Source of the DNA: a virus
Taxonomy: Duplodnaviria; Caudoviricetes
Reading direction: 5' to 3' (one strand)
IMG/VR virus record: IMGVR_UViG_3300047551_001440
Location: 1 to 34,291 of that record
DNA: 34,291 nt
Shown: positions 2,140 through 29,329 of the stretch, in pieces
Position numbering within the stretch: position 1 is the first letter of the stretch
How the letters are laid out: each line of letters begins with the position of its first letter
Notes under the pieces: generated by a model
What the model was told of the DNA's origin: nothing
Databases searched by the model: none
The model's input: only the letters and a program-made list of their open reading frames with translations
Program-made: the position numbers and the translations under genes

Positions 2140-2165
2140 TCTGTTTACACACTAGGAGAGAAACC

Positions 2166-3431: not shown

Positions 3432-3459
3432 TGCCCGTACCCTCTAGGAGAGAACAACC

Positions 3460-4943: not shown

Positions 4944-4972
4944 TTGACACACTAGCACCCGTATTCGATAAT
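4944..4972 (+). promoter_or_regulatory. Sigma70-like promoter within an imperfect inverted repeat
   Basis: TTGACA-N17-GATAAT; arms AATGCGGGTGTT / AGCACCCGTATT. Confidence 0.7.
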
Positions 4973-6540: not shown

Positions 6541-6557
6541 TCAACTGGAGAGAGATC

Positions 6558-9002: not shown

Positions 9003-9029
9003 AAGGGACCCTCGGGTCCCTTTTCTTTT
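9003..9029 (+). terminator. Intrinsic terminator of the early region
   Basis: AAGGGACC-CTCG-GGTCCCTT followed by TTCTTTT. Confidence 0.8.
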
Positions 9030-11412: not shown

Positions 11413-11829
11413 TCAGAACGGTTTGAACTCTTTCAATGGAAAGACTGCCGTTGGCTCCGTGTCCTGCCAGTCATTCCTGTCTACCCTGCCCCACATCACG
11501 ATCTCAAACCGTTCCTGTTTAACCTCTCGCCAGTAAATTTCATCCCCGAAGGCCACGGCCAACAGGAATGGAAGGCCAGTCACTCGACTCAACTCAAGTC
11601 CTGCCATGACCTTGTGCAGGGACAGTTTGATGTCCTGCTTCTTGGCCCGACACTTGATCTCAAGCCACGCCTTCACTTTGTCATCCTCGGAGGTCAGTGC
11701 GTAATCCAACTGGTAATGCAAGGGCAACTTCCACCACTCACAGTGCCACCTCTTGCACAGGGCATCGATGACGGTCTGTTCAGCCTCCCGATCTTTCGGG
11801 GTTTCATACAGTCTTCTGAGTGAGGTCAT
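11413..11829 (-). CDS. PD-(D/E)XK nuclease-fold protein
   Basis: LDY...WLEIKCR; start placed at ATG 11829 because the upstream part of the listed ORF is structured, leader-like sequence. Confidence 0.65.
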   Translation of the reverse strand: MTSLRRLYETPKDREAEQTVIDALCKRWHCEWWKLPLHYQLDYALTSEDDKVKAWLEIKCRAKKQDIKLSLHKVMAGLELSRVTGLPFLLAVAFGDEIYWREVKQERFEIVMWGRVDRNDWQDTEPTAVFPLKEFKPF

Positions 11830-12060
11830 ACAGGTTAGATCACCAAAGACTCCCCCTACCCCAACACTAGTGGGTAGCGGGAGGATCACCACCCCCGAAG
11901 GGGCACTGTCATGTGCCATCGCTGACACCCCCGAGCCTGACAGTACGACTAGCCCCACGGATTGTTCGGGAACTGCCCCCTAGTCCGAAGACGTACCGTG
12001 TCGCGGTTTCCTTCCGAGCAGCCCCACTTGCGGCCCTTGCTGTCGTGCGGAGTACGGGCG

Positions 12061-12176
12061 AAAAAAAACCGCTAAGACAGACCCCGGTGGCAACAATCCT
12101 TTTAGTGGAAGGATGTCCCCTTGCGGGGTCGGAGTCTGACTTAGCGGTTCTTCCTGCTTGTTGCCACACGAGCAGG
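12061..12176 (-). ncRNA. C4-antisense-like structured RNA with upstream complementary hairpin
   Basis: Outer stem AACCGCUAAG-U-CAGACUCCG / CGGGGUCUG-U-CUUAGCGGUU ending in a run of 8 U; GCAA tetraloop hairpin; second hairpin; UUGUUGCCAC complementary to the upstream loop GUGGCAACAA. Confidence 0.65.
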
Positions 12177-12183
12177 TGTTCGC

Positions 12184-12213
12184 ACTTTAATCCAAGGGAC
12201 AAGACCTTGTCAA
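12184..12213 (-). promoter_or_regulatory. Leftward sigma70-like promoter
   Basis: TTGACA (12213-12208)-N18-TAAAGT (12189-12184). Confidence 0.65.
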
Positions 12214-12234
12214 CACCCCCTGATTGGGTATGAT
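12207..12234 (+). promoter_or_regulatory. Rightward sigma70-like promoter overlapping the leftward -35
   Basis: TTGTCA (12207-12212)-N16-TATGAT (12229-12234). Confidence 0.6.
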
Positions 12235-12239
12235 GACGA

Positions 12240-12314
12240 AGACAGGTTCACGCCTGTCTCTCTCCTAGTTCATGTGAAGACATGTTGGCCCCGCTTCTTG
12301 CGGGGCTTTTCTTT
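12240..12314 (+). ncRNA. Putative anti-Shine-Dalgarno small RNA (~75 nt)
   Basis: Upstream promoter, 5' hairpin AGACAGG/CCUGUCU, free CUCUCCUAGUU, small hairpin, plus-strand terminator. Confidence 0.6.
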
Positions 12315-12701
12315 GGGCGGGAGAGTCTCAATGATGATCTCTGACCGCGGGTTCTCCTTGTCCAGGCCCCAGAAGATGTGCTTCTCCTTGACCTGCCTGT
12401 CGTTTACATAGGCCACCCCCTGCAAGAGGTCGAGGATCAGGGACTCATCCAGATCAGGACGCCGGGAGGCATAGAAGATGCGGATCGTGATCCGTACATC
12501 CTGATCGATCAGCGGGCTGACCGGCGTGGCCTGCGCTTTAAACACATCCGAGTACGTCAGCGCCTTCTTGCTCTTGATGAGCCGTGAGATGCCGCCGATC
12601 CTGGCGATCTTCCTGCTGTTGGCCTTGGATGCAGGCTCACCACAAATAACGAACACAAGTGCTTGCGTTCCGTTCCAGATGGTGCTATCGTCTGTTCCCA
12701 T
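12270..12701 (-). CDS. rusA: RusA-like Holliday junction resolvase
   Basis: PASKANSR...RRPDLD...LDLLQG...NDRQV; start uncertain (12701 or 12728). Confidence 0.8.
   Translation of the reverse strand: MGTDDSTIWNGTQALVFVICGEPASKANSRKIARIGGISRLIKSKKALTYSDVFKAQATPVSPLIDQDVRITIRIFYASRRPDLDESLILDLLQGVAYVNDRQVKEKHIFWGLDKENPRSEIIIETLPPKEKPRKKRGQHVFT
12288..12314 (+). terminator. Intrinsic terminator (plus strand only)
   Basis: GCCCCGC-TTCTT-GCGGGGC-TTTTCTTT; no U-tract on the minus strand. Confidence 0.75.
12663..12691 (+). promoter_or_regulatory. Putative promoter of the recombination operon
   Basis: TTGCGT-N17-TATCGT with extended -10 TG; AGTGC precedes the -35 as in the early promoters. Confidence 0.45.
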
Positions 12702-18492: not shown

Positions 18493-18725
18493 AACACATT
18501 GAACTACTTCAGCGGTGCCATGACCTTCTCCGCAAGGTCGATACGGTGACCCCTGAAGGACGGGTTACGCCTGACGGTGACCGCCTCGCCAAAGACATCA
18601 ACGACTACCTCAACCATGTCAGCAGTCACGCTCATGGCTGTTGGTCATGGGGGCCTCAGCACTACATGTGCGCCTACGAACACATCAAACAACTGGAGAG
18701 AGAACTTGCCAACCTCAACGACTAA
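18489..18725 (+). CDS. Hypothetical protein with His/Cys cluster
   Basis: ATGA overlap; SHAHGCWSWGPQHYMCA. Confidence 0.65.
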   Translation: MKHIELLQRCHDLLRKVDTVTPEGRVTPDGDRLAKDINDYLNHVSSHAHGCWSWGPQHYMCAYEHIKQLERELANLND

Positions 18726-19714: not shown

Positions 19715-22700
19715 TCAAGAGGTCTGCTTCTTCAGCATCTGGATGTTCGATGTCATCTGGTTCTCAATCTGGGTGATTGCCCGGATGAGGTCCCGCTTGG
19801 CATCGGCATCCATCGGCAGACTGCGGACCATGTTCTTGGTGTCCCGGTACTGCTTCATGGTCTTCTCAAGGTCGAGGATGTAGTCCTTGAACGCGAACAT
19901 CTTGATGTTCTCCGACATGTACTGACCGTACTGTTCGAAGTTCATGCTGCGCTCAAGGAGGTTGGCCGTCCGGGTTGCCTCATCCACCGAGTTCTTGAGA
20001 TCGTAGTACGCCGTCACCTGACCACGAGCGTCAGGGTCCAGGGCGAAGCGTTTAACCACGGGCATTTGCTCGAAACGCTTACTGGCCTTCGGGTTGTCGG
20101 TGTGCATGTCCCACACGGCATCGATCACATCAGACATGTACTGCCCGATGGTTCCCGTGTATCCCTTGATGATCTGGTCGATCTTCATGGGGGACATGTT
20201 TAACGCTCCACCCAGGCCCTCTGCCAAGCGTGAGGTGCCGGGGCCAACCTGATACCCAGGAGCCACCCCCTCCAACCCTTGTCCCACGATGGGACGGAAG
20301 GTGAAGAAGGAGAAGTTGGTGGTGGCCTCAACCAGGGGCAGGATGGTCTGAGGAATCGGGTTTACAGCAAGGGTGCTCGCCAGATTCCGGGCCATCGACT
20401 TTGTGAAGTCCTTGGCCGTGTCATCCCCAAGGGTCAGCGCAGCGATCCGCTCAGGGATCACCTTGAACAGCACACCCACTTCGAACGGGATGGGGATACG
20501 AATGCCCAGTGAGGGGAAGAGCCAGTTGTTGTCCCTGGTTTCCTGCTCCTGACGCTTGTACTCCTCATCGTCGTGGGTGAGCATCCAGTACATCGTGGAC
20601 AGGGCTGCGATGGTCATGCCCCGCACCCAGAATGCCCTTTGGATTTCCTTTGCGTTCTTGGTGGCGTTCTTCCCGAATCCTGCCCGGTACAGAACGTCTA
20701 AACCCTGCATCCGTGCGTTGAGGAACGGAATGGCCGCGGTCGCTACACGGACGATGGGGTTGTTGCCCTTGCGGTTGAAGTTCATCACCTCAAGCGCACG
20801 GAACAGTGCCTCGGCTTCGTTGCCCGTTTCCTTCAGGGTGGACTTGTAAACCTCAATCCGGGTAGCAGCGTCAGAAGCCTGCGTTCCCTTCTCCAGGCCC
20901 TCCCACAGGTATGTAAACGGGCGCATGGCCTTCTCGCCCGCCGTTGGCTTCCCACCTGCGCGGCGCAGTTCCTTGCCGAACTCCTTGGCCGCTTCCTTCG
21001 TGCCCTGTGAGTAGTCGTACCCTCCGATGATGCCTGCCATCTGAAGGATGTTGAACTCGGGAGACTGACCCGCCAGGGTCTTGGTGAAGTTGGCGAGCGT
21101 GGCCGTAATCGGTGTCATGTTTACACCGCTCGTAGTCCACGCAGCCAGAGAGTCCCGCATCATGTTGGCGAGCATGAAGCCGGGGTCCTTGGTCACAAGG
21201 TTCCGCAGGACGTTGGCCGGGGCGGCAAGCAACCCGATAAACGGCAGATCAGGCATACCCAGAGACTTGATGGCCTCAATGAAGAGCATGTCCGAGGTGT
21301 CGTAATAGACCTTCTCGCCGTCCTCCAGAACGTAGAAACTGTTGATGGGGTCAGGGGTAGCGCCCTTAGGCACCTTGTCCACCATCCGAACATCCATGCC
21401 CACATCAGCGGCGCGACGGGCAGCAATGTTCTTCACCCCTGCCTGAACAGCAGCCTGGGTGTTGCGAACCATGTTCTCAAGGAAGTCCCCAAGCGGGTCC
21501 TCACCGCCCTTGAGTTTGCGGGGTTGTTTAACCGCAGCAATGGACTGGAAGATGCGCGGCCCGACAGCATCATCATCACCCTGAATCTGGCGATAGAAGG
21601 GCAGGTAGTCACCATGCTTGGTGAACTCGTATGCCTGCTTGCGGCTCAGGACCCCGGTATCCACCATGAACTCAACCAGAGCGTCGTTGTAGGCGTTCCA
21701 TTCCTTCTGAATCTTTTCGAAATCAACCCCGTCCTTCAGGAACTGCTGACGCAGTTGTTCAGCCTTCTGGATGTCGGCCTTTTCGAACAGACGCTCCTTG
21801 ACCACCTGCCCTTGGGCGTTGGTCATCCACTTCTCACCCCGTTTAACGCCTGCCCAGAATTGGTAGTACTGATAGGCCATAGGATCGCCGTACTTCGCCA
21901 GGGGGGCGAAGATGGCAAGCGGTCCCTTGATGGTGTTGTTCTTGTTGGAGACGGTCACATAGCCGCGCTCCTTGACTGACCCGCCAACCTTCTTGGCGAA
22001 GGCTTCAGCAGCACGGCGGTCAGTGATCTTCCCGCCCAACTGAATGAACTGATCACCCTGAGGACCGGGCACACGCTTCTCAACCGCGTAGTAGCGGTTG
22101 TAAACGGGCACACCACCGATCTTGTCGTACACACCCAGAGCGCCTGCCACGATGCCTGCACCGAGGTCAGACAGCAGAGCAGCCGATTCTGCGGTCTGGT
22201 CCGCGTACATTTCTGCCCCGCCACTGCGGGCGAGTTTCAACTTGTCGGCATCGCCAAGACGGTTGTATCTGTTTAACGCGGCAGCACGATAGCGCGAGCG
22301 AGACTCGGGCGCGATGGCGTCAGTGATGCGCTGCTCAAAACCCTTCTCTTGCCGAACCGTCGTGGTCTGGAGGGTCCGGGCAGTGATGGCAGGATCAATC
22401 TGGGACTTCAGGCTGAACCGGATGTCAGGGCTTGTTGGTTCAAACGTGCCCACATTCCCAATGGCAGACTTGACCTGAGTCGGCTTGTAAACGGCTAGGT
22501 TTTTGCGACCTTCCTCTTTTACATAGAAAGAATCAAAGCCTGCCAGTTGTATTGCTTCTTGGACTTCTGGTAATTCAATAATTTCCCAATTACCACTACG
22601 AATATCGCTCCAAAAATAATCATCATCAAGATTTAATTCTTCTTTAATGCGACGAATGTGACGAGTATTTTGATAATCAAATGGGTTTTCTGCCTTTACA

Positions 22701-25700
22701 AATAAAGGCATGATGTGAGGTCCTGTCAATGGCTCAAACCCATATGTTTGACTTTCTTTGGCAAATTTTTCCGCAAATACCGGATCATCTGTTAAGAAAA
22801 TGGGCGCACCACGCTTGGTTTTCCGGGTGAAATCAGTTGTGTCTTTGGCAAGGCCGTGATACATCAACTTTGGCTCACCATTGGCATCCACAACCTTGCT
22901 GTCACCGAACCACCGCCTGAACGCTTCGGTCTGAGGAGCACGCAGGCTGAACTTGACTTCACCTTCGCCGCCGAATTTCTGTTTAACCTCATCGCGGTAC
23001 TCCCAACTCAGGGGAGTCATCTCCACATTGCGGATGCCTGCGATGGCTTTTCCTTGGGAGCCAAATGACTGCGGCCTGAGGTAAACGCTTTTGGGCTTGG
23101 CACTCTTTTCGTGACTGCCACCAGACAACCCAAGGTAAACAGGAACTTCCTCAATGCCTGCGTCCCGAAGAGCCATCATGCGGTGGCGACCCTCGTGTCC
23201 CGTAATTTCGTATTCATCAGGGCTGATGCGGCGGATGTCGAGCGTTATCGGCTGACGCTCATTTGCAAGTTCTTCGCGCCGCAGCGGTTCACGCTCTGTC
23301 TCAAGCCGCTCCCGGTAATCTCGGGTTGCAGTGGCATCAAGGAAGTCACTTGGACGGATAAACGCAGCGTAGCCCTTGGTATCACCCTCTCGACCATTCT
23401 GCGTGTACATGTTGGACGAAATCAGAGACTCAATGCGCTTGTCAGTCCAACGGCCCGAGCGCAGGCTGAACCGGATGTCACCCGCCTTCTGAGCCTCCAC
23501 AGCCTGCTCTTCGGTCATGCCAACCCGAGCAGCCTCTTCTGCCGTGGGGGGACGCTGTCCGAAGGTGCCGACGTTCTTGTCGATGGACTTGATCTTGGTG
23601 ATGTCGTACACACCAAGGTTCTTGGTCCTGCCCTCGCTGACATAGAACGAGTCGAAGTTCTTCCGGATGGCCCTCTGGACCTCGGGCGTCTCAATGTCGC
23701 TCCAGTCGCCCAGGCTGACCGTCTCCTTGTACCTGTCGTTTACCGCCTTCTGGAACTCCTTCGGGGTGCGCTCCAGGGTCTGCTTGAGCATGAAGTTCTC
23801 AGGGGCGAAGATGTCCACACCCTTCGGGGCAGGCTCGTACCCGTACTTCCTCTTGACCTCCGGGTCAGAGAGCATGTTCTTCATCACCGTGTTTACATGC
23901 TCTTTGTTGTCGTAGTCGAACGGCCTCTCTGAGAGGACGTACAACTCCATCACCTGTTCCTTGGCCTCAGGAATCTTGGAGAAGGCGATGTCGTACCAGA
24001 TGTCTTCCAGTTCACCCTTGAACTTGTAAACGCCCGTCTCCTTGGCGTCCATCAACGTGTCGTTGATGCTGTCCATGAACTGCATCGTGGTCTTGCTCTG
24101 CTTGCCGTACTCCGCGTAAACCCTCTGCCGCAGTTCTTGGACGATGGGCCGGATTTCAGATACGGGCAGGAACTCACCAATGTGCCGCACCATCCAGTTG
24201 CGGGATGCTGATGTAAACGGTTGGGCAAACCGGGGGTTGGGACTGACGAAGGTAGCCCCCGCCTGCTTGGGACGGAACTTGAAGAAGGTCAGCCCAGTGC
24301 CGTGGTACATGGGAATCAGGTTCCCATCCTTGTCCACGATGGCCGACTTCTTCGCGGCCTCCTGCAACTCGGGCGTGGTTAAACGAGTCTCTGCAAGGCT
24401 GAACTTGGGAGGCGTTACTTCTGTGGGTTCTGCTTGGGCAGGCTCTCCACGAACTTCTGTAGCGCCTGCGACCTCTCCTCTGGCGACATCCCCACGACCA
24501 TCGCGCTCAGGGAAGACCACAGAGGGTCCCTCTCGTCTATCAGTCTTTTGGGACTGGGCGATGATGGCTTCTTCGTATCCGATGTCATCTGCTTTCCTTC
24601 CGCTGAGTTTTTCGTATAAACGCTTCTCGTAATACCAAAGAGCGGCTTGGATGTCTGCCAACGTCAAGTCAATGCCCTCGCTCCTCAGGATGCCCTGAGC
24701 ACGGCGAGCCGCCCGGTACATAAAGTCACGGTCATTGGCTGTAAACGGCGCCTCTTCCAGACCTTCAAACTCGTTCTTGTAGATGGTGTTTGCCATCTTT
24801 TCGAGGTTGTGGTCATACAGGAGTTGGTCATAGGCGGGGCCTGCCACTCGCTGTGCCTTGGTAAACCAAGCGGGCTTGGCTCCCTTTTTAGATGGCTCCT
24901 TTGAGCCAACCAGATGCTCCAGTTCGGTGGTGTACCCAAACTCTTCGTACTTGTTACGCAAGGGGATCGTTGCCGCCACCAGATCATCACGATCCATTGA
25001 CGGGTCACCGATCATGTCCCGGAACTTTTCGATTGAGGCATCTGTGGCGCGGGGGATGAGCAGGCCACGCATCCGATTGATGGAGCGAGTCCACCACAAA
25101 TCCATCGTCAGGTAGCCTTCAGAGCCGGAGAGGTTGGCGTAGAAAGCCCCCAGTTTTGGCCCGAAGTAAACAGCCGCCGCAGGAACAACGGTGTTGTACA
25201 GGTAACTTGTGTCTGGCTCTTCACCCATTGCCCGCAGTTGGGCATTCATGTCCTTGACGGTGATTTCTTGCTTGAGCACCTTCTCAAAGTCGGTGCCATG
25301 CTTTGCCAGAAGGTCTTGGATGACCTGAAGGTTGTTCTCTAAAGCGGTTGCTCGACGGTTGCCCATCGCAACCAATGGCTTTCCACTACGCAACTTGGAG
25401 TACAGCGTGATGGCGTTGTCGATGTTCTTGTTGACCTTTTCGCCGTTGGAGGTCACGGCAACCAGTGCCGTAAATACCGCCCGTGCGTGTCGGTTTGTGG
25501 CAAGTTCCGGGAACCGATTGCCAAGCCGTTTAACGGCCCGTGGATAGTTGTTTGAGTACCACCCAAGCCCGGTTCCAGTCTCACGCTTGCCTGCCGTCAG
25601 TTGATATGCCACCTCATCCGCGATGGCCTTGGCGATGGCCGTCTCGTTGAGCAGGTTCAACTTCTTGCGGTCCATCTTCCCCTGTTCGCGGAGGGTTTGC

Positions 25701-28700
25701 TCGTTTAACGCAATACCAATGTCACGAACCTTGTTGGCGATGCCGCGCTTGGTTGCAATGTTCAGTCCAAGTTCTGCCCGCGCAAACTCATCGTTGGCCT
25801 CCATGATGGCCCGTGTAGACAGGGGCACTTCACCACGCAGGCTGAACTTGCCTTCGGGGGCTTTTTGTTCAATTGGGATGTTGTGCCGACCAATCAGGAC
25901 GGCAAAGCCCTGCTGCCCTATCGGATCACGGTGCAGGTATCCATCAAACCCTGCCCGCATGATCGAACGCTCAAGGTTGGAGGCTCGGTCATTGGCGTCT
26001 TCACCACGGTTGTTCTTGATGATGCCAAGCGGGTCAGCAATGACATCGTATAAGTTGTTTAGACGAACAATGTGCTGAACGCCACCAACCCCTGCCTCTT
26101 GGCGCACACCCTTGCCCGTGTTTACATAAAAGTAAATGCGGGGCTTGATGTCTGAGTTCTTGGCGTCAGAAAGACGGTCAGCCTCGGCACCCCGAAGGCC
26201 GGTGCCGTAGTAACCCGAGATGAGGGTGTCTCTGGGCTTTTGGCTGAAATGAACGCCAATGGCGCTTACTGCGCCTTCTCGGGGGCTTCCGTATTCTGCT
26301 TGGGGTTCACCAGTCTGAGGAGCGATTCCTCCGCTGACTGAGCGAGTGATTGCTCTGGAGTCAATCCATCGATCCCTGAGTTTGAGCGCTTCTTCTGATA
26401 GGTACTGAAGCCGATTGCGCCCTTCCCGCCGAGCATCTGGCCCTGGGGCACCGTCACGGTATTTACTTTCGCCATATCGAGTCCCCTCAAGGTAGTCTTC
26501 ACGCTTGTCGGGCCAAACAAGTTCGCTATGGAAACGAACAGGCAACGACACATCGATGCTTCCATCATAGTCAAACGACTCAATAGCGTCAACGATGGCA
26601 GACCGATATTGGTCATCCGTCAGGGTTTCAATGCTGTCGTTGTAGGCCGAGAAGTTCCCGTACAACAGCGCACCATCGCGCAACGTGTCGCCTTCAGCCT
26701 GGGGAACCCGGTCTGCGATATGCCTGCGAAGTTGTGTGATCTTCTGATCGTCCATGCCCTTGGGCAAGAAGACCTTGACGAAGCCCGCTTGGTTGTCTGA
26801 TGTGGTGTTGAACTCATCAAAGGCAACCATCGCCTTCTGATCCAACACATACCCCAACACACTTGCCAGTTCAGACAGGTCTTCTGCCGACGCACTATCA
26901 GGGGCAGAGATCAAAACATTTGGATTCCTCTGGCCTTCGTATGTCCCAGATGAAAACTGATACTTGTAGCCTTTAAACCCAAGGTAATCGAGTACGCGGC
27001 CCACGACTTGGTTGGCAACAGACTTGGTCGCACTCATGCGCTCTTCGTCCGTCATCTGCTTCCAAGACTCGGATACAGGCTGATCTGGGTTGGGGGCAAC
27101 CTCTGCAATAACGCCGCGAGGAGATGGGACTCCCTGTTGGGCAAGGCTCGCTTTGGGCTGAGTTGGCGTCTCTTGTTTAACAGTCTTCTGCGGTGCAGAA
27201 ACCTGCCCCTTTTCAACCCGCTCAAACAGACGCTCGGGCGTGACCTCTGCCATGCCAACCGATTCCTTGATCGACTGGAAGAGATTACGCATCTTGGCGA
27301 TCAGCGCCCGGATCATGCCCGGAGGTGCCTTGGCGACGGCGAAGTCCCCAAACGCATCCGCGATGGCCTCTTCAACCATCGACTCCTGAATGGCGGCGTC
27401 ATCCAACCCTTGCTGTTTGAACAGACGGGTGTATGCGTCGTACCTGCTTTCCTTGCCCGGTTGCAGGTAGTTGCCGTCGATGTCCCGGTTACGCAGGTAG
27501 GTGTCGATCCAAGTCGTGTTGGCCTGTTTAACCAGAGACTGCCACTGCGCCGGAGTGAAGAACTCCAACTCCTTGAGCGCGTGGATGGACTCATGTTTAA
27601 GTGCCCGCACAGGGTCAGCCGTGTTCACGGCCAACTGGATCAGGCCCTTGGAGTAAACACCGTTGGCGTTCTTCAGGTCATCGATGACCTTCACGCCCAC
27701 GTTGGTCAGACCGTAGCGTTTAACCTGCTCTTGGAGGAGGCCCTGGAACTTCTCCATCTGCGATGAGATGACCGATTCCTGCTCCGCGATCAGTTCCTGG
27801 GTGGTCGGAGGCTTGAACTCAGCAGGAGTTACTGGAGCGGGTGGGACTCCTTCTCCTGCAACAGGCGCTCCAACATCCGCGACAGGAGGAACCACTCCAG
27901 TTCGTTCAACTCCCTCAACTCCTGGGGCGGGTCCAGTGTCAGTGGGTCCAACAGGAACTGGAACGCCTTCTCCACCTGCTGTTTCGACAACTTGTCCAAC
28001 ATCAGGCACCTCCCTCGTGCTCAGGTACTCGTTGATGACGTTTAACGCATCAGTGGCTGCTTGACGCTGCCCTCGACTGACCTCGGGACTGGTGCTTGCG
28101 GCACTCAGGGTTGCCTTGATCTCTTCAGCCTGTGCGGGGTCGTTGATGTCCTTGTTCAGGAGGATGTTGTACAAGTCACCCTTGCGGAAGCCAAGGTCCT
28201 TCAGGGCATCCTTATCAAGACGGTTGCGGCCCTCTTCATCTGCCTGGGCACGGAGTTCTTCAAGGAACGCCTTGCGGGCGATGATGTCGGACTGGGTGTT
28301 GCGGATGTCCTCATCCAGAGACTTCATCTCGGGGGTCAGGCTCTTCTTGCCGAGCACCACATCTGTGGTGCCAGACACCACACCACCACCCAGACCGCCC
28401 TTCAAGCCTGCGTTGAGGAACCGCTCAAGGTTCTTCTCGGAGAAGAACTCTTGGTTCTCATCCACGAACTTCTCAGCAGCAGCGGAGGACATCTCCTGAG
28501 CCGCTTCCGTTGCACCCTCGGTGAGGAATCCCTTGGATGCCCCGACACCGAAGCGTTTAATCCAGGCACCAACGGCCTGCTCTTCAGGGATGCCTGACTT
28601 CCTGAGTTTGGTCAGGATAGACAGCGGAAGCGCGGCATCAAGTAGGCTGTTGAACCCACCAAAGAGGAGGGCTGACCCGATGCTTTCCTGCTCCGTCTCG

Positions 28701-29329
28701 TCCTTGATGTTCTTGTAAACCTCAGGGACGTTCTGGAGGGATGATCCGGCGACGATACCGACCGCGTCGTACTTGATTGCGGTGCGTCGTGCGGCTTCGA
28801 TTCCGGCCTGTCGGATTTCATCCTGAACTTCTTTCTTGGCAAGGGCCTCTGCTCCTTGCTCTGCCACCTTCTTCTTGGCCGCAGCCTCTGCTGCTTCCTT
28901 GGCGGCAATGACCGCACCACGACTTGCCACGCCCGCGATACCACCTGTAAACAGGGATGGCAGGATGGACGGGATCAGTTCACCGACCGACTCCGTGATG
29001 TAAGTGATCGCATCGCCAACGCCCTTGACATCCTTGTAGGACGGTACGGCAGCGGCGTACTTCTCCTGAATCTTCTGTTCGGTTTCAGCGGCCTCTCGGA
29101 ACTGACGCTCCGCATACTCGTTTGCACCAAACAGCCGTCCTGCCATCGCGGGCAGGATGTCACCCATGAGGATTCCGGTCTGAAGGAATCCACGTTGCAC
29201 GGCAGGGATGAACCCGCCCTGCGGCTTCGGTGCCGCAGCGGCAGGCTCAGTCTCCAACTGAAATCCCGGTGGAAGTTGAACGCCTTTGGAAGGCTCCTCT
29301 TCAAGGACGAATCCGGGCGGCAGGGCCAT
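19715..29329 (-). CDS. Giant polyvalent virion/ejection protein (3204 aa): metallopeptidase, ART-like, HhH glycosylase-like, two ART-PolyVal-like, ParB-like and LPD38-like domains
   Basis: HESIH (aa 579); GVHFS...RIYFY; GPKLGAFYANL/TMDLW/QAALW; two MYHG...PFDY...FDSFYV repeats; GHEGRHR; C-terminal RIPIPFE...SPMKIDQIIKGYTG. Confidence 0.85.
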   Translation of the reverse strand: MALPPGFVLEEEPSKGVQLPPGFQLETEPAAAAPKPQGGFIPAVQRGFLQTGILMGDILPAMAGRLFGANEYAERQFREAAETEQKIQEKYAAAVPSYKDVKGVGDAITYITESVGELIPSILPSLFTGGIAGVASRGAVIAAKEAAEAAAKKKVAEQGAEALAKKEVQDEIRQAGIEAARRTAIKYDAVGIVAGSSLQNVPEVYKNIKDETEQESIGSALLFGGFNSLLDAALPLSILTKLRKSGIPEEQAVGAWIKRFGVGASKGFLTEGATEAAQEMSSAAAEKFVDENQEFFSEKNLERFLNAGLKGGLGGGVVSGTTDVVLGKKSLTPEMKSLDEDIRNTQSDIIARKAFLEELRAQADEEGRNRLDKDALKDLGFRKGDLYNILLNKDINDPAQAEEIKATLSAASTSPEVSRGQRQAATDALNVINEYLSTREVPDVGQVVETAGGEGVPVPVGPTDTGPAPGVEGVERTGVVPPVADVGAPVAGEGVPPAPVTPAEFKPPTTQELIAEQESVISSQMEKFQGLLQEQVKRYGLTNVGVKVIDDLKNANGVYSKGLIQLAVNTADPVRALKHESIHALKELEFFTPAQWQSLVKQANTTWIDTYLRNRDIDGNYLQPGKESRYDAYTRLFKQQGLDDAAIQESMVEEAIADAFGDFAVAKAPPGMIRALIAKMRNLFQSIKESVGMAEVTPERLFERVEKGQVSAPQKTVKQETPTQPKASLAQQGVPSPRGVIAEVAPNPDQPVSESWKQMTDEERMSATKSVANQVVGRVLDYLGFKGYKYQFSSGTYEGQRNPNVLISAPDSASAEDLSELASVLGYVLDQKAMVAFDEFNTTSDNQAGFVKVFLPKGMDDQKITQLRRHIADRVPQAEGDTLRDGALLYGNFSAYNDSIETLTDDQYRSAIVDAIESFDYDGSIDVSLPVRFHSELVWPDKREDYLEGTRYGESKYRDGAPGPDARREGRNRLQYLSEEALKLRDRWIDSRAITRSVSGGIAPQTGEPQAEYGSPREGAVSAIGVHFSQKPRDTLISGYYGTGLRGAEADRLSDAKNSDIKPRIYFYVNTGKGVRQEAGVGGVQHIVRLNNLYDVIADPLGIIKNNRGEDANDRASNLERSIMRAGFDGYLHRDPIGQQGFAVLIGRHNIPIEQKAPEGKFSLRGEVPLSTRAIMEANDEFARAELGLNIATKRGIANKVRDIGIALNEQTLREQGKMDRKKLNLLNETAIAKAIADEVAYQLTAGKRETGTGLGWYSNNYPRAVKRLGNRFPELATNRHARAVFTALVAVTSNGEKVNKNIDNAITLYSKLRSGKPLVAMGNRRATALENNLQVIQDLLAKHGTDFEKVLKQEITVKDMNAQLRAMGEEPDTSYLYNTVVPAAAVYFGPKLGAFYANLSGSEGYLTMDLWWTRSINRMRGLLIPRATDASIEKFRDMIGDPSMDRDDLVAATIPLRNKYEEFGYTTELEHLVGSKEPSKKGAKPAWFTKAQRVAGPAYDQLLYDHNLEKMANTIYKNEFEGLEEAPFTANDRDFMYRAARRAQGILRSEGIDLTLADIQAALWYYEKRLYEKLSGRKADDIGYEEAIIAQSQKTDRREGPSVVFPERDGRGDVARGEVAGATEVRGEPAQAEPTEVTPPKFSLAETRLTTPELQEAAKKSAIVDKDGNLIPMYHGTGLTFFKFRPKQAGATFVSPNPRFAQPFTSASRNWMVRHIGEFLPVSEIRPIVQELRQRVYAEYGKQSKTTMQFMDSINDTLMDAKETGVYKFKGELEDIWYDIAFSKIPEAKEQVMELYVLSERPFDYDNKEHVNTVMKNMLSDPEVKRKYGYEPAPKGVDIFAPENFMLKQTLERTPKEFQKAVNDRYKETVSLGDWSDIETPEVQRAIRKNFDSFYVSEGRTKNLGVYDITKIKSIDKNVGTFGQRPPTAEEAARVGMTEEQAVEAQKAGDIRFSLRSGRWTDKRIESLISSNMYTQNGREGDTKGYAAFIRPSDFLDATATRDYRERLETEREPLRREELANERQPITLDIRRISPDEYEITGHEGRHRMMALRDAGIEEVPVYLGLSGGSHEKSAKPKSVYLRPQSFGSQGKAIAGIRNVEMTPLSWEYRDEVKQKFGGEGEVKFSLRAPQTEAFRRWFGDSKVVDANGEPKLMYHGLAKDTTDFTRKTKRGAPIFLTDDPVFAEKFAKESQTYGFEPLTGPHIMPLFVKAENPFDYQNTRHIRRIKEELNLDDDYFWSDIRSGNWEIIELPEVQEAIQLAGFDSFYVKEEGRKNLAVYKPTQVKSAIGNVGTFEPTSPDIRFSLKSQIDPAITARTLQTTTVRQEKGFEQRITDAIAPESRSRYRAAALNRYNRLGDADKLKLARSGGAEMYADQTAESAALLSDLGAGIVAGALGVYDKIGGVPVYNRYYAVEKRVPGPQGDQFIQLGGKITDRRAAEAFAKKVGGSVKERGYVTVSNKNNTIKGPLAIFAPLAKYGDPMAYQYYQFWAGVKRGEKWMTNAQGQVVKERLFEKADIQKAEQLRQQFLKDGVDFEKIQKEWNAYNDALVEFMVDTGVLSRKQAYEFTKHGDYLPFYRQIQGDDDAVGPRIFQSIAAVKQPRKLKGGEDPLGDFLENMVRNTQAAVQAGVKNIAARRAADVGMDVRMVDKVPKGATPDPINSFYVLEDGEKVYYDTSDMLFIEAIKSLGMPDLPFIGLLAAPANVLRNLVTKDPGFMLANMMRDSLAAWTTSGVNMTPITATLANFTKTLAGQSPEFNILQMAGIIGGYDYSQGTKEAAKEFGKELRRAGGKPTAGEKAMRPFTYLWEGLEKGTQASDAATRIEVYKSTLKETGNEAEALFRALEVMNFNRKGNNPIVRVATAAIPFLNARMQGLDVLYRAGFGKNATKNAKEIQRAFWVRGMTIAALSTMYWMLTHDDEEYKRQEQETRDNNWLFPSLGIRIPIPFEVGVLFKVIPERIAALTLGDDTAKDFTKSMARNLASTLAVNPIPQTILPLVEATTNFSFFTFRPIVGQGLEGVAPGYQVGPGTSRLAEGLGGALNMSPMKIDQIIKGYTGTIGQYMSDVIDAVWDMHTDNPKASKRFEQMPVVKRFALDPDARGQVTAYYDLKNSVDEATRTANLLERSMNFEQYGQYMSENIKMFAFKDYILDLEKTMKQYRDTKNMVRSLPMDADAKRDLIRAITQIENQMTSNIQMLKKQTS

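What the first reader, a model, noticed from the sequence alone, without database searches (positions are those of the whole stretch)
12207..12314. Phage small RNA complementary to the ribosome-binding sites of the phage's own genes, expressed back-to-back with the C4-like RNA
Seen: promoter TTGTCA-N16-TATGAT shares its -35 DNA with the leftward promoter. The ~75-nt unit has a 5' hairpin, UCUCUCUCCUAGUU (12257-12270, mostly unpaired) and a plus-strand-only terminator. Its reverse complement AACTAGGAGAGAGA matches the RBS of DUF6011 (ACTAGGAGAGA, 2151-2161, 11 nt), the AAA+ gene (CTAGGAGAGA, 3444-3453, 10 nt), gene 6558 (AACT-GGAGAGAGA, 6543-6555, one bulge) and the same 13-mer before the TTG at 18706 (18691-18703). 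Pairing extends well beyond the GGAG core. Inference: a trans-acting sRNA silencing a subset of early genes; with the divergent C4-like RNA it may form a protein-free, two-RNA developmental switch.
Basis: partly seen in the sequence, partly recalled or inferred. Interest (0 to 1): 0.88.

Follow-up and report, generated by a model that had tools for sequence, protein, structure and literature searches.

The report
Phage sRNA mirroring its own RBSs
A freshwater phage and most of its relatives carry a tiny promoter-to-terminator unit whose exposed C/U-rich stretch is complementary to the ribosome-binding sites of several of the phage's own early genes and changes along with them between relatives, so it likely makes a small RNA that switches those genes off by base-pairing, though no transcript has been seen.

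Summary
In detail: promoter, hairpins, unpaired seed, terminator and all four RBS matches are at the stated places. The four sites are the window's top four duplexes.

The unit overlaps the last 45 nt of rusA on the other strand. It belongs to a clade-wide family: 151 of 203 rusA loci with enough flank carry such a unit. Seeds differ between phages and match each phage's own RBSs better than relatives' (z about 6; coding control null). The excess sits in the left gene block containing the AAA+ gene (29 of 399 genes versus 7.6 expected), is weak in the replication block and is absent from virion genes. Near the sister phage's swapped seed, the AAA+ RBS has changed to match.

Against: about half of near-complete relatives show little own-target match, and no RNA evidence exists. 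The 'C4-like two-RNA switch' is not supported: no Rfam C4 match, the promoter overlap is not conserved, and integrase is present in only 2 of 18 genomes.

Verdict: probable trans-acting anti-Shine-Dalgarno sRNA repressing an early-gene regulon; a new variant of a known kind. This scan noted similar systems on other DNA.

The parts
12207..12234 (+). sigma70-type promoter of the sRNA (TTGTCA-16-TATGAT)
   Evidence: family-wide TAnAnT box upstream of the unit in 92 of 113 units vs 19 on the opposite strand and 9 further upstream; 59 vs 15 and 9 after masking the GTTTAAAC-type motif
12240..12314 (+). predicted ~75-nt sRNA (start inferred from the -10 position)
   Evidence: fold z -5.4; positional homologues in 151 of 203 rusA loci
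12240..12259 (+). 5' hairpin
   Evidence: a hairpin starts within 4 nt of the predicted 5' end in 88 of 116 unique units
12257..12270 (+). anti-Shine-Dalgarno seed (12260-12270 unpaired)
   Evidence: best CUCC/UCCU site unpaired (>0.7) in 93 of 104 units
12271..12284 (+). second short hairpin
12287..12314 (+). intrinsic terminator, inside the rusA 3' end on the other strand
12270..12701 (-). rusA Holliday-junction resolvase; last 45 nt antisense to the sRNA
   Evidence: Pfam PF05866; stop at 12270; overlap in 100 of 109 convergent units, median 42 nt
2151..2161 (+). predicted target: RBS of the DUF6011 gene (ATG 2166), 11-nt match
3444..3453 (+). predicted target: RBS of the AAA_5 (CobS/MoxR-like) ATPase gene (ATG 3460), 10-nt match
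   Evidence: RBS and seed both differ in sister L063
6543..6555 (+). predicted target: RBS of gene 6558 (123 aa, no family), 13 bp with one bulge
18691..18703 (+). possible target: RBS before TTG 18706 (143 aa, weak MarR-like hit); also codes QLERE of the upstream ORF
12184..12213 (-). leftward promoter (TTGACA-18-TAAAGT) of the replication block
   Evidence: conserved in relatives
   Evidence: fold z -6.0; X/X' fully complementary in 20 of 26 loci with motif calls, six sequence types; no Rfam C4 match

Best explanation
The unit 12240-12314 is likely a phage small RNA that represses translation of several of the phage's own early genes by pairing its unpaired C/U-rich seed with an extended, phage-specific ribosome-binding site. 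Shown: the promoter-hairpin-open seed-terminator anatomy, its conservation at the rusA 3' end across the clade, and seed-RBS matching that tracks each phage and is concentrated in the left block (AAA+/VWA, p6361, DUF6011, small genes), with primase-helicase and exonuclease in some lineages. Inferred: host sigma70 polymerase transcribes it; it accumulates after entry, blocks 30S loading on the tagged mRNAs (possibly with Hfq, given the U-tail), and so limits or ends expression of that early block. Also inferred: convergent rusA transcription, which carries its full complement, may titrate or degrade it and set the timing.
For: Architecture. Family: 151 of 203 loci; -10 enrichment; 5' hairpin and open seed. 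Own versus foreign RBS: 35 dereplicated loci, top-3 match 8.52 vs 7.73, z 5.8, coding-window control z 0.4; holds at <65% Exo identity (n=12, z 4.2). Own matches of 9 nt or more: left block 29 of 399 vs 7.6 expected, exo block 17 of 691 vs 16.5. In 22 large records plus the window: left 19 of 293 vs 4.7, virion 3 of 888 vs 3.6. Accessibility-corrected energies z 5.7. Motif-masked z 6.1; GC-matched 34 of 49 positive. Single-base tracking in the GGAGGCU subclade: L028 14 nt at primase, L228 and L182 13 nt at primase, L314 10 nt at Exo. Window vs L063 at the AAA RBS: own 10 and 14 nt, crossed 7 and 6. The 10-nt site plus ATG occurs 20 times in 81 bacterial genomes (about 277 Mb) vs twice in 34 kb here. 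Only 13 of 116 units have an opposite-strand ORF of 30 aa or more behind the SD-like site.
Against: No transcript evidence. In one search, 9 of 23 genomes have no own RBS match of 9 nt or more, and several others have only one. Dropping the 8 best phages lowers z to 2.2-2.3. Sister pairs are modest: 15 positive, 5 negative, 5 ties by printed values, largely driven by a few pairs. L063's 14-nt match includes the genome-wide TTTAAAC motif. Six of 56 foreign loci match the window's RNA as well as its own RBSs do. The -35 box is poorly conserved. A second motif, GCAGUUG (60 of 116 units, absent here), has no identified partner. Gene starts come from my own caller.
Confidence: 0.62

Rival explanations
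1. OOP-like cis-antisense RNA: its job is to pair with and destabilise the rusA mRNA 3' end, and the RBS matches are secondary.
For: 100 of 109 convergent units overlap the rusA ORF, median 42 nt; lambda OOP overlaps cII by 52 nt and acts through RNase III (PMC5869508, passages).
Against: 9 convergent units do not overlap and 7 are inverted, yet keep the C/U seed. Cis-antisense needs no seed that tracks distant RBSs. There is no own-match excess at the rusA start. It may act in addition to the trans role.
Confidence: 0.12
2. Generic anti-SD RNA aimed at host mRNAs (like the betaproteobacterial 'toxic'/double-hairpin sRNAs); phage RBSs match because both follow the host's RBS style.
For: Some relatives score 25-31 bits against RF02278 (gathering 50); many relatives lack clear own targets; CU-rich RF02278 RNAs pair with host RBSs and slow growth (PMC5688073, PMC11722255, passages).
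Against: Excess is block-specific (left yes, exo and virion no), which a host-wide style would not give. The window's 10-nt site is rare in 81 genomes of a candidate host order (host not established). Matches extend into spacer bases that differ between close phages.
Confidence: 0.15
3. The RNA pairs with these RBSs but serves immunity or a carrier state (C4/CI-like superinfection exclusion), alone or with the leftward RNA.
For: Phage-specific seed/target pairs resemble P1/P7 heteroimmunity (PMC12197685, passage). The two integrase-bearing relatives (G010, G011) aim their seeds at primase-helicase. No CI-type repressor was found.
Against: Integrase in 2 of 18, resolvase in 0 of 18. Promoter overlap not conserved. 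No C4 match. This differs from the best explanation only in purpose.
Confidence: 0.07
4. No functional RNA: a convergent terminator plus a leftover minus-strand RBS in the phage's own style.
For: The seed reads AGGAGAGA on the minus strand right after the rusA stop, followed by a GTG 13-codon ORF. In a few relatives (L101, L115, L216) the called site is a real RBS of a downstream gene.
Against: Strand-specific -10 enrichment, 5' hairpins of unrelated sequence, open seeds, and no ORF of 30 aa or more in 103 of 116 units. A dead RBS would not keep tracking its targets.
Confidence: 0.04

Closest known systems
Betaproteobacterial CU-rich 'toxic'/double-hairpin sRNAs (Rfam RF02278; B. cenocepacia ncS03/05/27/62, BdhR1; B. 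pertussis S17)
   Same: 57-92 nt, own terminator, unpaired CU-rich stretch covering target RBSs, many targets (PMC5688073, PMC11722255, PMC4603805, passages).
   Different: Those are chromosomal, keep a conserved seed and target host metabolic genes. Here the RNA is phage-encoded, the seed diverges and tracks the phage's own RBSs. The window has no RF02278 match; relatives reach at most 31 bits against a gathering score of 50.
c4 antisense RNA of phages P1/P7 (Rfam RF01695)
   Same: Phage RNA blocking a phage RBS in trans, with phage-specific pairing (PMC12197685, passage).
   Different: c4 acts on the adjacent ant operon in an immunity region. This unit is a stand-alone promoter-terminator gene aimed at several genes 6-10 kb away. 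No Rfam match for either RNA.
lambda OOP RNA
   Same: About 75 nt, convergent, own promoter and terminator, overlaps the 3' end of the opposite gene (52 nt of cII; here 45 nt of rusA) (PMC5869508, passages).
   Different: OOP is known as cis-antisense only. Here a seed co-varies with distant RBSs, and some homologues do not overlap rusA.
P22 sar RNA
   Same: 68-69 nt phage RNA inhibiting antirepressor synthesis by pairing with ant mRNA (PMC12197685, passage).
   Different: Single target; no multi-gene RBS tag.

Membership tests
RF02278 Betaproteobacteria toxic sRNA | Covariance-model score at or above 50 bits | tested here: not met
   No listing for the window at E<=10, 0 matches (whose controls did not ring either); relatives 24.9-31.1 bits
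RF02278 Betaproteobacteria toxic sRNA | Unpaired CU-rich stretch complementary to RBSs, followed by an intrinsic terminator | tested here: met
RF02278 Betaproteobacteria toxic sRNA | Growth inhibition / host mRNA repression on overexpression | not testable with these tools
   needs experiment
C4 antisense RNA (RF01695), for the leftward RNA | Covariance-model match | tested here: not met
   0 of 5 records at E<=1 (weak control)
C4 antisense RNA (RF01695), for the leftward RNA | Complementary target sites both in the leader and downstream (recalled feature of C4/CI systems) | tested here: inconclusive
   Leader X / inner X' complementary in 20 of 26; no second X within 11801-12200
C4 antisense RNA (RF01695), for the leftward RNA | Temperate-phage immunity context | tested here: not met
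   integrase 2 of 18, resolvase 0 of 18 near-complete relatives; window record 57% complete
OOP-type cis-antisense RNA | Convergent promoter-terminator unit overlapping a gene's 3' end | tested here: met
   45 nt of rusA; 100 of 109 units
OOP-type cis-antisense RNA | RNase III-dependent decay of the overlapped mRNA | not testable with these tools
   needs experiment
Trans-acting anti-SD sRNAs (class) | Seed-target complementarity beyond the SD core that co-varies | tested here: met
Trans-acting anti-SD sRNAs (class) | Expressed discrete RNA that represses its targets | not testable with these tools
   no RNA data available

The most novel reading that the evidence does not exclude
These largely repressor-less freshwater phages run a programmable RNA regulon. 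A private tag written around the Shine-Dalgarno sites of chosen early and replication genes is read by one small RNA, and tag and seed are rewritten together as lineages diverge. This gives each phage its own protein-free off-switch, and possibly its own exclusion specificity against co-infecting relatives, with convergent rusA transcription acting as the RNA's antidote.
Probability: 0.3. Interest if true: 0.87.

Novelty: new variant of a known kind. Interest (0 to 1): 0.7.

Why it matters
The phage RNAs acting on phage genes in the review I read (OOP, sar, aQ, c4; passages of PMC12197685) each control one gene or operon, mostly in temperate phages. Multi-target anti-SD sRNAs are known from bacterial chromosomes. 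A clade-wide phage sRNA whose seed co-evolves with a tag on several of its own RBSs would add a post-transcriptional layer to early-gene timing in mostly integrase-less phages. It gives natural compensatory pairs that make the mechanism directly testable in reporters without culturing the phage. It would also explain why some phages show genome-private RBS motifs, and it supplies orthogonal sRNA-RBS pairs.

Tried and rejected
Exact 16-nt seed scan of viral contigs: 19 of 19 hits were unrelated to this phage (no BLAST similarity) and looked like reverse-strand RBSs. The seed alone is therefore no family marker.

PDDEXK_14 query found no relatives. Annotated phages: one weak DNA hit, and RusA relatives at no more than 50%. 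No cultured close relative. The genome scan gave mostly short MAG contigs, so the host is not established.

Rfam: no match at gathering level for either RNA.

Sequencing runs: no RNA holder listed. Contigs of four DNA runs gave nothing on the sRNA. Variation of the sRNA among very close strains stays open.

The first gene-calling attempt picked antisense shadow ORFs (z 4.5 but window targets missed) and was replaced. Five doubtful unit calls (L095, L233, L038, L129, L154) were dropped. Only 62 of the 153 unit-bearing loci (11 kb or longer, unique) entered that set. In one search the L026 and L141 rows were anchored on the primase RBS by mistake and are not used. The alignment had wrong coordinates and was discarded. 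In one search the script's 17/6 count includes rounding noise; 15/5/5 is read from the printed values.

DUF6011 was found in 1 of 26 relatives, so that target could not be tested for co-variation. The protein atlas was unavailable for genes 6558 and 18706.

Literature searches listed no paper describing this family. Kimelman 2012 was not held. The sequence supplements of Fremin 2023 (files 1, 2, 4) could not be searched and may list the unit as an unnamed candidate.

Full report
CONTEXT. The window is a 57%-complete linear virus record. The listed runs holding it at large share are freshwater metagenomes. Gene map: a left block L on + (DUF6011, phrog_6361, AAA_5 ATPase, VWA, small genes; ends at a terminator near 9003); a replication block R on - (rusA to primase-helicase); a block E on + (exonuclease, Sak, small genes, HNH); and a virion block V on -. 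Relatives are 55-65 kb with the same layout.

OBSERVATION. All coordinates hold. The unit folds into a 5' hairpin, an 11-nt open stretch, a short hairpin and a terminator (z -5.4). The four claimed sites are the four strongest duplexes in the window. A flank shuffle that keeps GGAG reaches the same top-4 sum in 1 of 3000 trials. The basic rusA tail (PKEKPRKKRG) is not conserved among relatives and coincides with the terminator on the other strand.

FAMILY. RusA searches gave 214 oriented loci including the window. Of 203 with at least 200 nt beyond rusA, 151 have a terminator preceded by a C/U-rich stretch and a -10-like hexamer; there are 116 unique units, 109 convergent on rusA and 7 inverted, median 68 nt. 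The detector required C/U content and a terminator, so the independent checks matter. TAnAnT occurs on the RNA strand in 92 of 113 units, vs 19 on the opposite strand and 9 further upstream. After masking an over-represented GTTTAAAC-type motif, which embeds 34 of the -10 boxes, the counts are 59 vs 15 and 9. A 5' hairpin is present in 88 of 116 and the anti-SD site is open in 93 of 104. Primary sequence is not conserved; position and architecture are. The -35 is weakly conserved.

CO-VARIATION. For 57 loci (62 long unique loci less 5 doubtful calls) I scored each RNA against every locus's RBS windows (-22..+3) and permuted the pairing. Own beats foreign: z 7.8 (57 loci), 5.8 (35 loci, Exo <85% identical), 5.8 (26 loci), 4.2 (12 loci). 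Coding windows of the same genes show nothing (z 0.3-0.6). By gene, p6361, Exo, AAA and g14368 show signal; VWA, rusA, RHH, HNH and g11357 do not. Own matches of 9 nt or more: L 29 of 399 (7.6 expected), R 10 of 201 (4.7), E 17 of 691 (16.5). In 22 large records plus the window: L 19 of 293 (4.7), R 6 of 132 (3.0), E 11 of 491 (11.3), V 3 of 888 (3.6). The result survives accessibility-corrected energies (z 5.7, the window second strongest), motif masking (z 6.1) and GC matching (34 of 49 positive).

Distinct private tags occur: GGAGGCUCA at seven RBSs of G011, AAGGAGUA(G) in G018, AGGAGAAAG in G016, and (A)AGGGGUAAGU in L033. Within the GGAGGCU group, single bases track, with primase-helicase the usual best target. 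The sister L063 (Exo 90% identical) has another seed and another AAA RBS: own 10 and 14 nt, crossed 7 and 6, though its match includes the TTTAAAC motif.

Against: 9 of 23 genomes have no own match of 9 nt or more; removing the 8 best phages leaves z 2.2-2.3; sister pairs are 15 positive, 5 negative, 5 tied; 6 of 56 foreign loci fit the window's RNA as well as its own RBSs do. So the self-targeting signal is strong in a subset that includes this phage, and weak or absent in others, which may aim at host mRNAs.

ALTERNATIVES. A leftover RBS on the minus strand is unlikely: 103 of 116 units have no ORF of 30 aa or more behind it, and the promoter and terminator point the other way. A host-wide RBS style is unlikely: the excess is block-specific, and the window's 10-nt site plus ATG occurs 20 times in about 277 Mb of 81 genomes from the order of a betaproteobacterial MAG that holds a relative (the host is not established). 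An OOP-like action on rusA is possible as an added role (overlap in 100 of 109 units), but non-overlapping and inverted units keep the seed.

THE LEFTWARD RNA. It is real and conserved: promoter, leader motif X, long stem with inner X', U-tail. X and X' are fully complementary in 20 of 26 loci across six sequence types. It fits a leader/attenuator of the replication block, or a CI/C4-like element by analogy (recalled), but matches no Rfam family. The shared -35 is not conserved (2 of 28 within 30 nt). Integrase is found in 2 of 18, HTH_3 in 2 of 18, S24 in 0 of 18 and resolvase in 0 of 18 near-complete relatives. A conserved two-RNA developmental switch is not supported. In this one phage the overlapping promoters could compete for polymerase (inference).

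MECHANISM. Shown: anatomy, family, seed-RBS tracking, block specificity. Inferred: sigma70 transcription, pairing over the SD to block 30S loading, shut-down or dampening of L-block (and in some lineages primase/exonuclease) synthesis as the RNA accumulates, and possible titration by rusA read-through, since no minus-strand terminator is called between rusA and the leftward promoter. Confidence 0.62.

KNOWN SYSTEMS. It works like the CU-rich anti-RBS sRNAs of Betaproteobacteria (RF02278, S17; passages of PMC5688073, PMC11722255, PMC4603805) but is not a member. It sits like lambda OOP (passages of PMC5869508) and pairs with phage RBSs like c4 and sar (passages of review PMC12197685). Seven searches listed no description of this family. 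Fremin 2023 (passages; three supplements unsearchable) could hold it unnamed. This scan's earlier notes describe similar anti-RBS RNAs in other phage genomes; they were seen after my tests and are not independent evidence.

VERDICT. Probable phage-encoded trans-acting anti-SD sRNA with a co-evolving own-gene regulon; new variant of a known kind; interest 0.7.

Noticed in passing
whole window (e.g. 2143, 7720, 7957, 8181) and G001-G024: The palindrome GTTTAAAC is hugely over-represented in most relatives (up to 98 both-strand counts vs about 2 expected); the window uses GTGTAAAC/GTTTACAC instead (18 vs 0.7). It often sits at gene junctions and overlaps the sRNA -10 box in 34 of 113 units: possible operator or methylation site.
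   Followed up: partly
window 12061-12177 (-) and relatives: Conserved, Rfam-unlisted leader RNA with a co-varying leader/inner-loop pair upstream of the primase-helicase block; likely an attenuator or CI-like element.
   Followed up: partly
window about 11925-12000: A further strongly conserved stretch (27-nt pattern in 15 viral loci) downstream of the leader RNA; coding or structural role not resolved.
   Followed up: no
60 of 116 sRNA units (e.g. L134, L127, L113): Second conserved motif GCAGUUG beside the C/U seed, absent from the window's RNA; partner unknown.
   Followed up: partly
L111, L163, L182, L224, L228: Two such small units back-to-back on opposite strands next to rusA.
   Followed up: no
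L163:2331-2446 and L164:1173-1290: Rfam Betaproteobacteria-1 RNA (RF02932) above the gathering score in two relatives, in L164 right behind the leader RNA; hints at betaproteobacterial hosts.
   Followed up: no
window 4944-4972 (+): Near-consensus promoter (11 of 12) between the AAA+ and VWA genes; the VWA RBS is not matched by the seed in this phage.
   Followed up: no
window 19715-29329 (-): 3204-aa polyvalent protein with ART-PolyVal and LPD38 domains.
   Followed up: no
L073 right of the leader RNA: tRNA-like sequences seen by eye in the intergenic region; not run through a tRNA finder.
   Followed up: no
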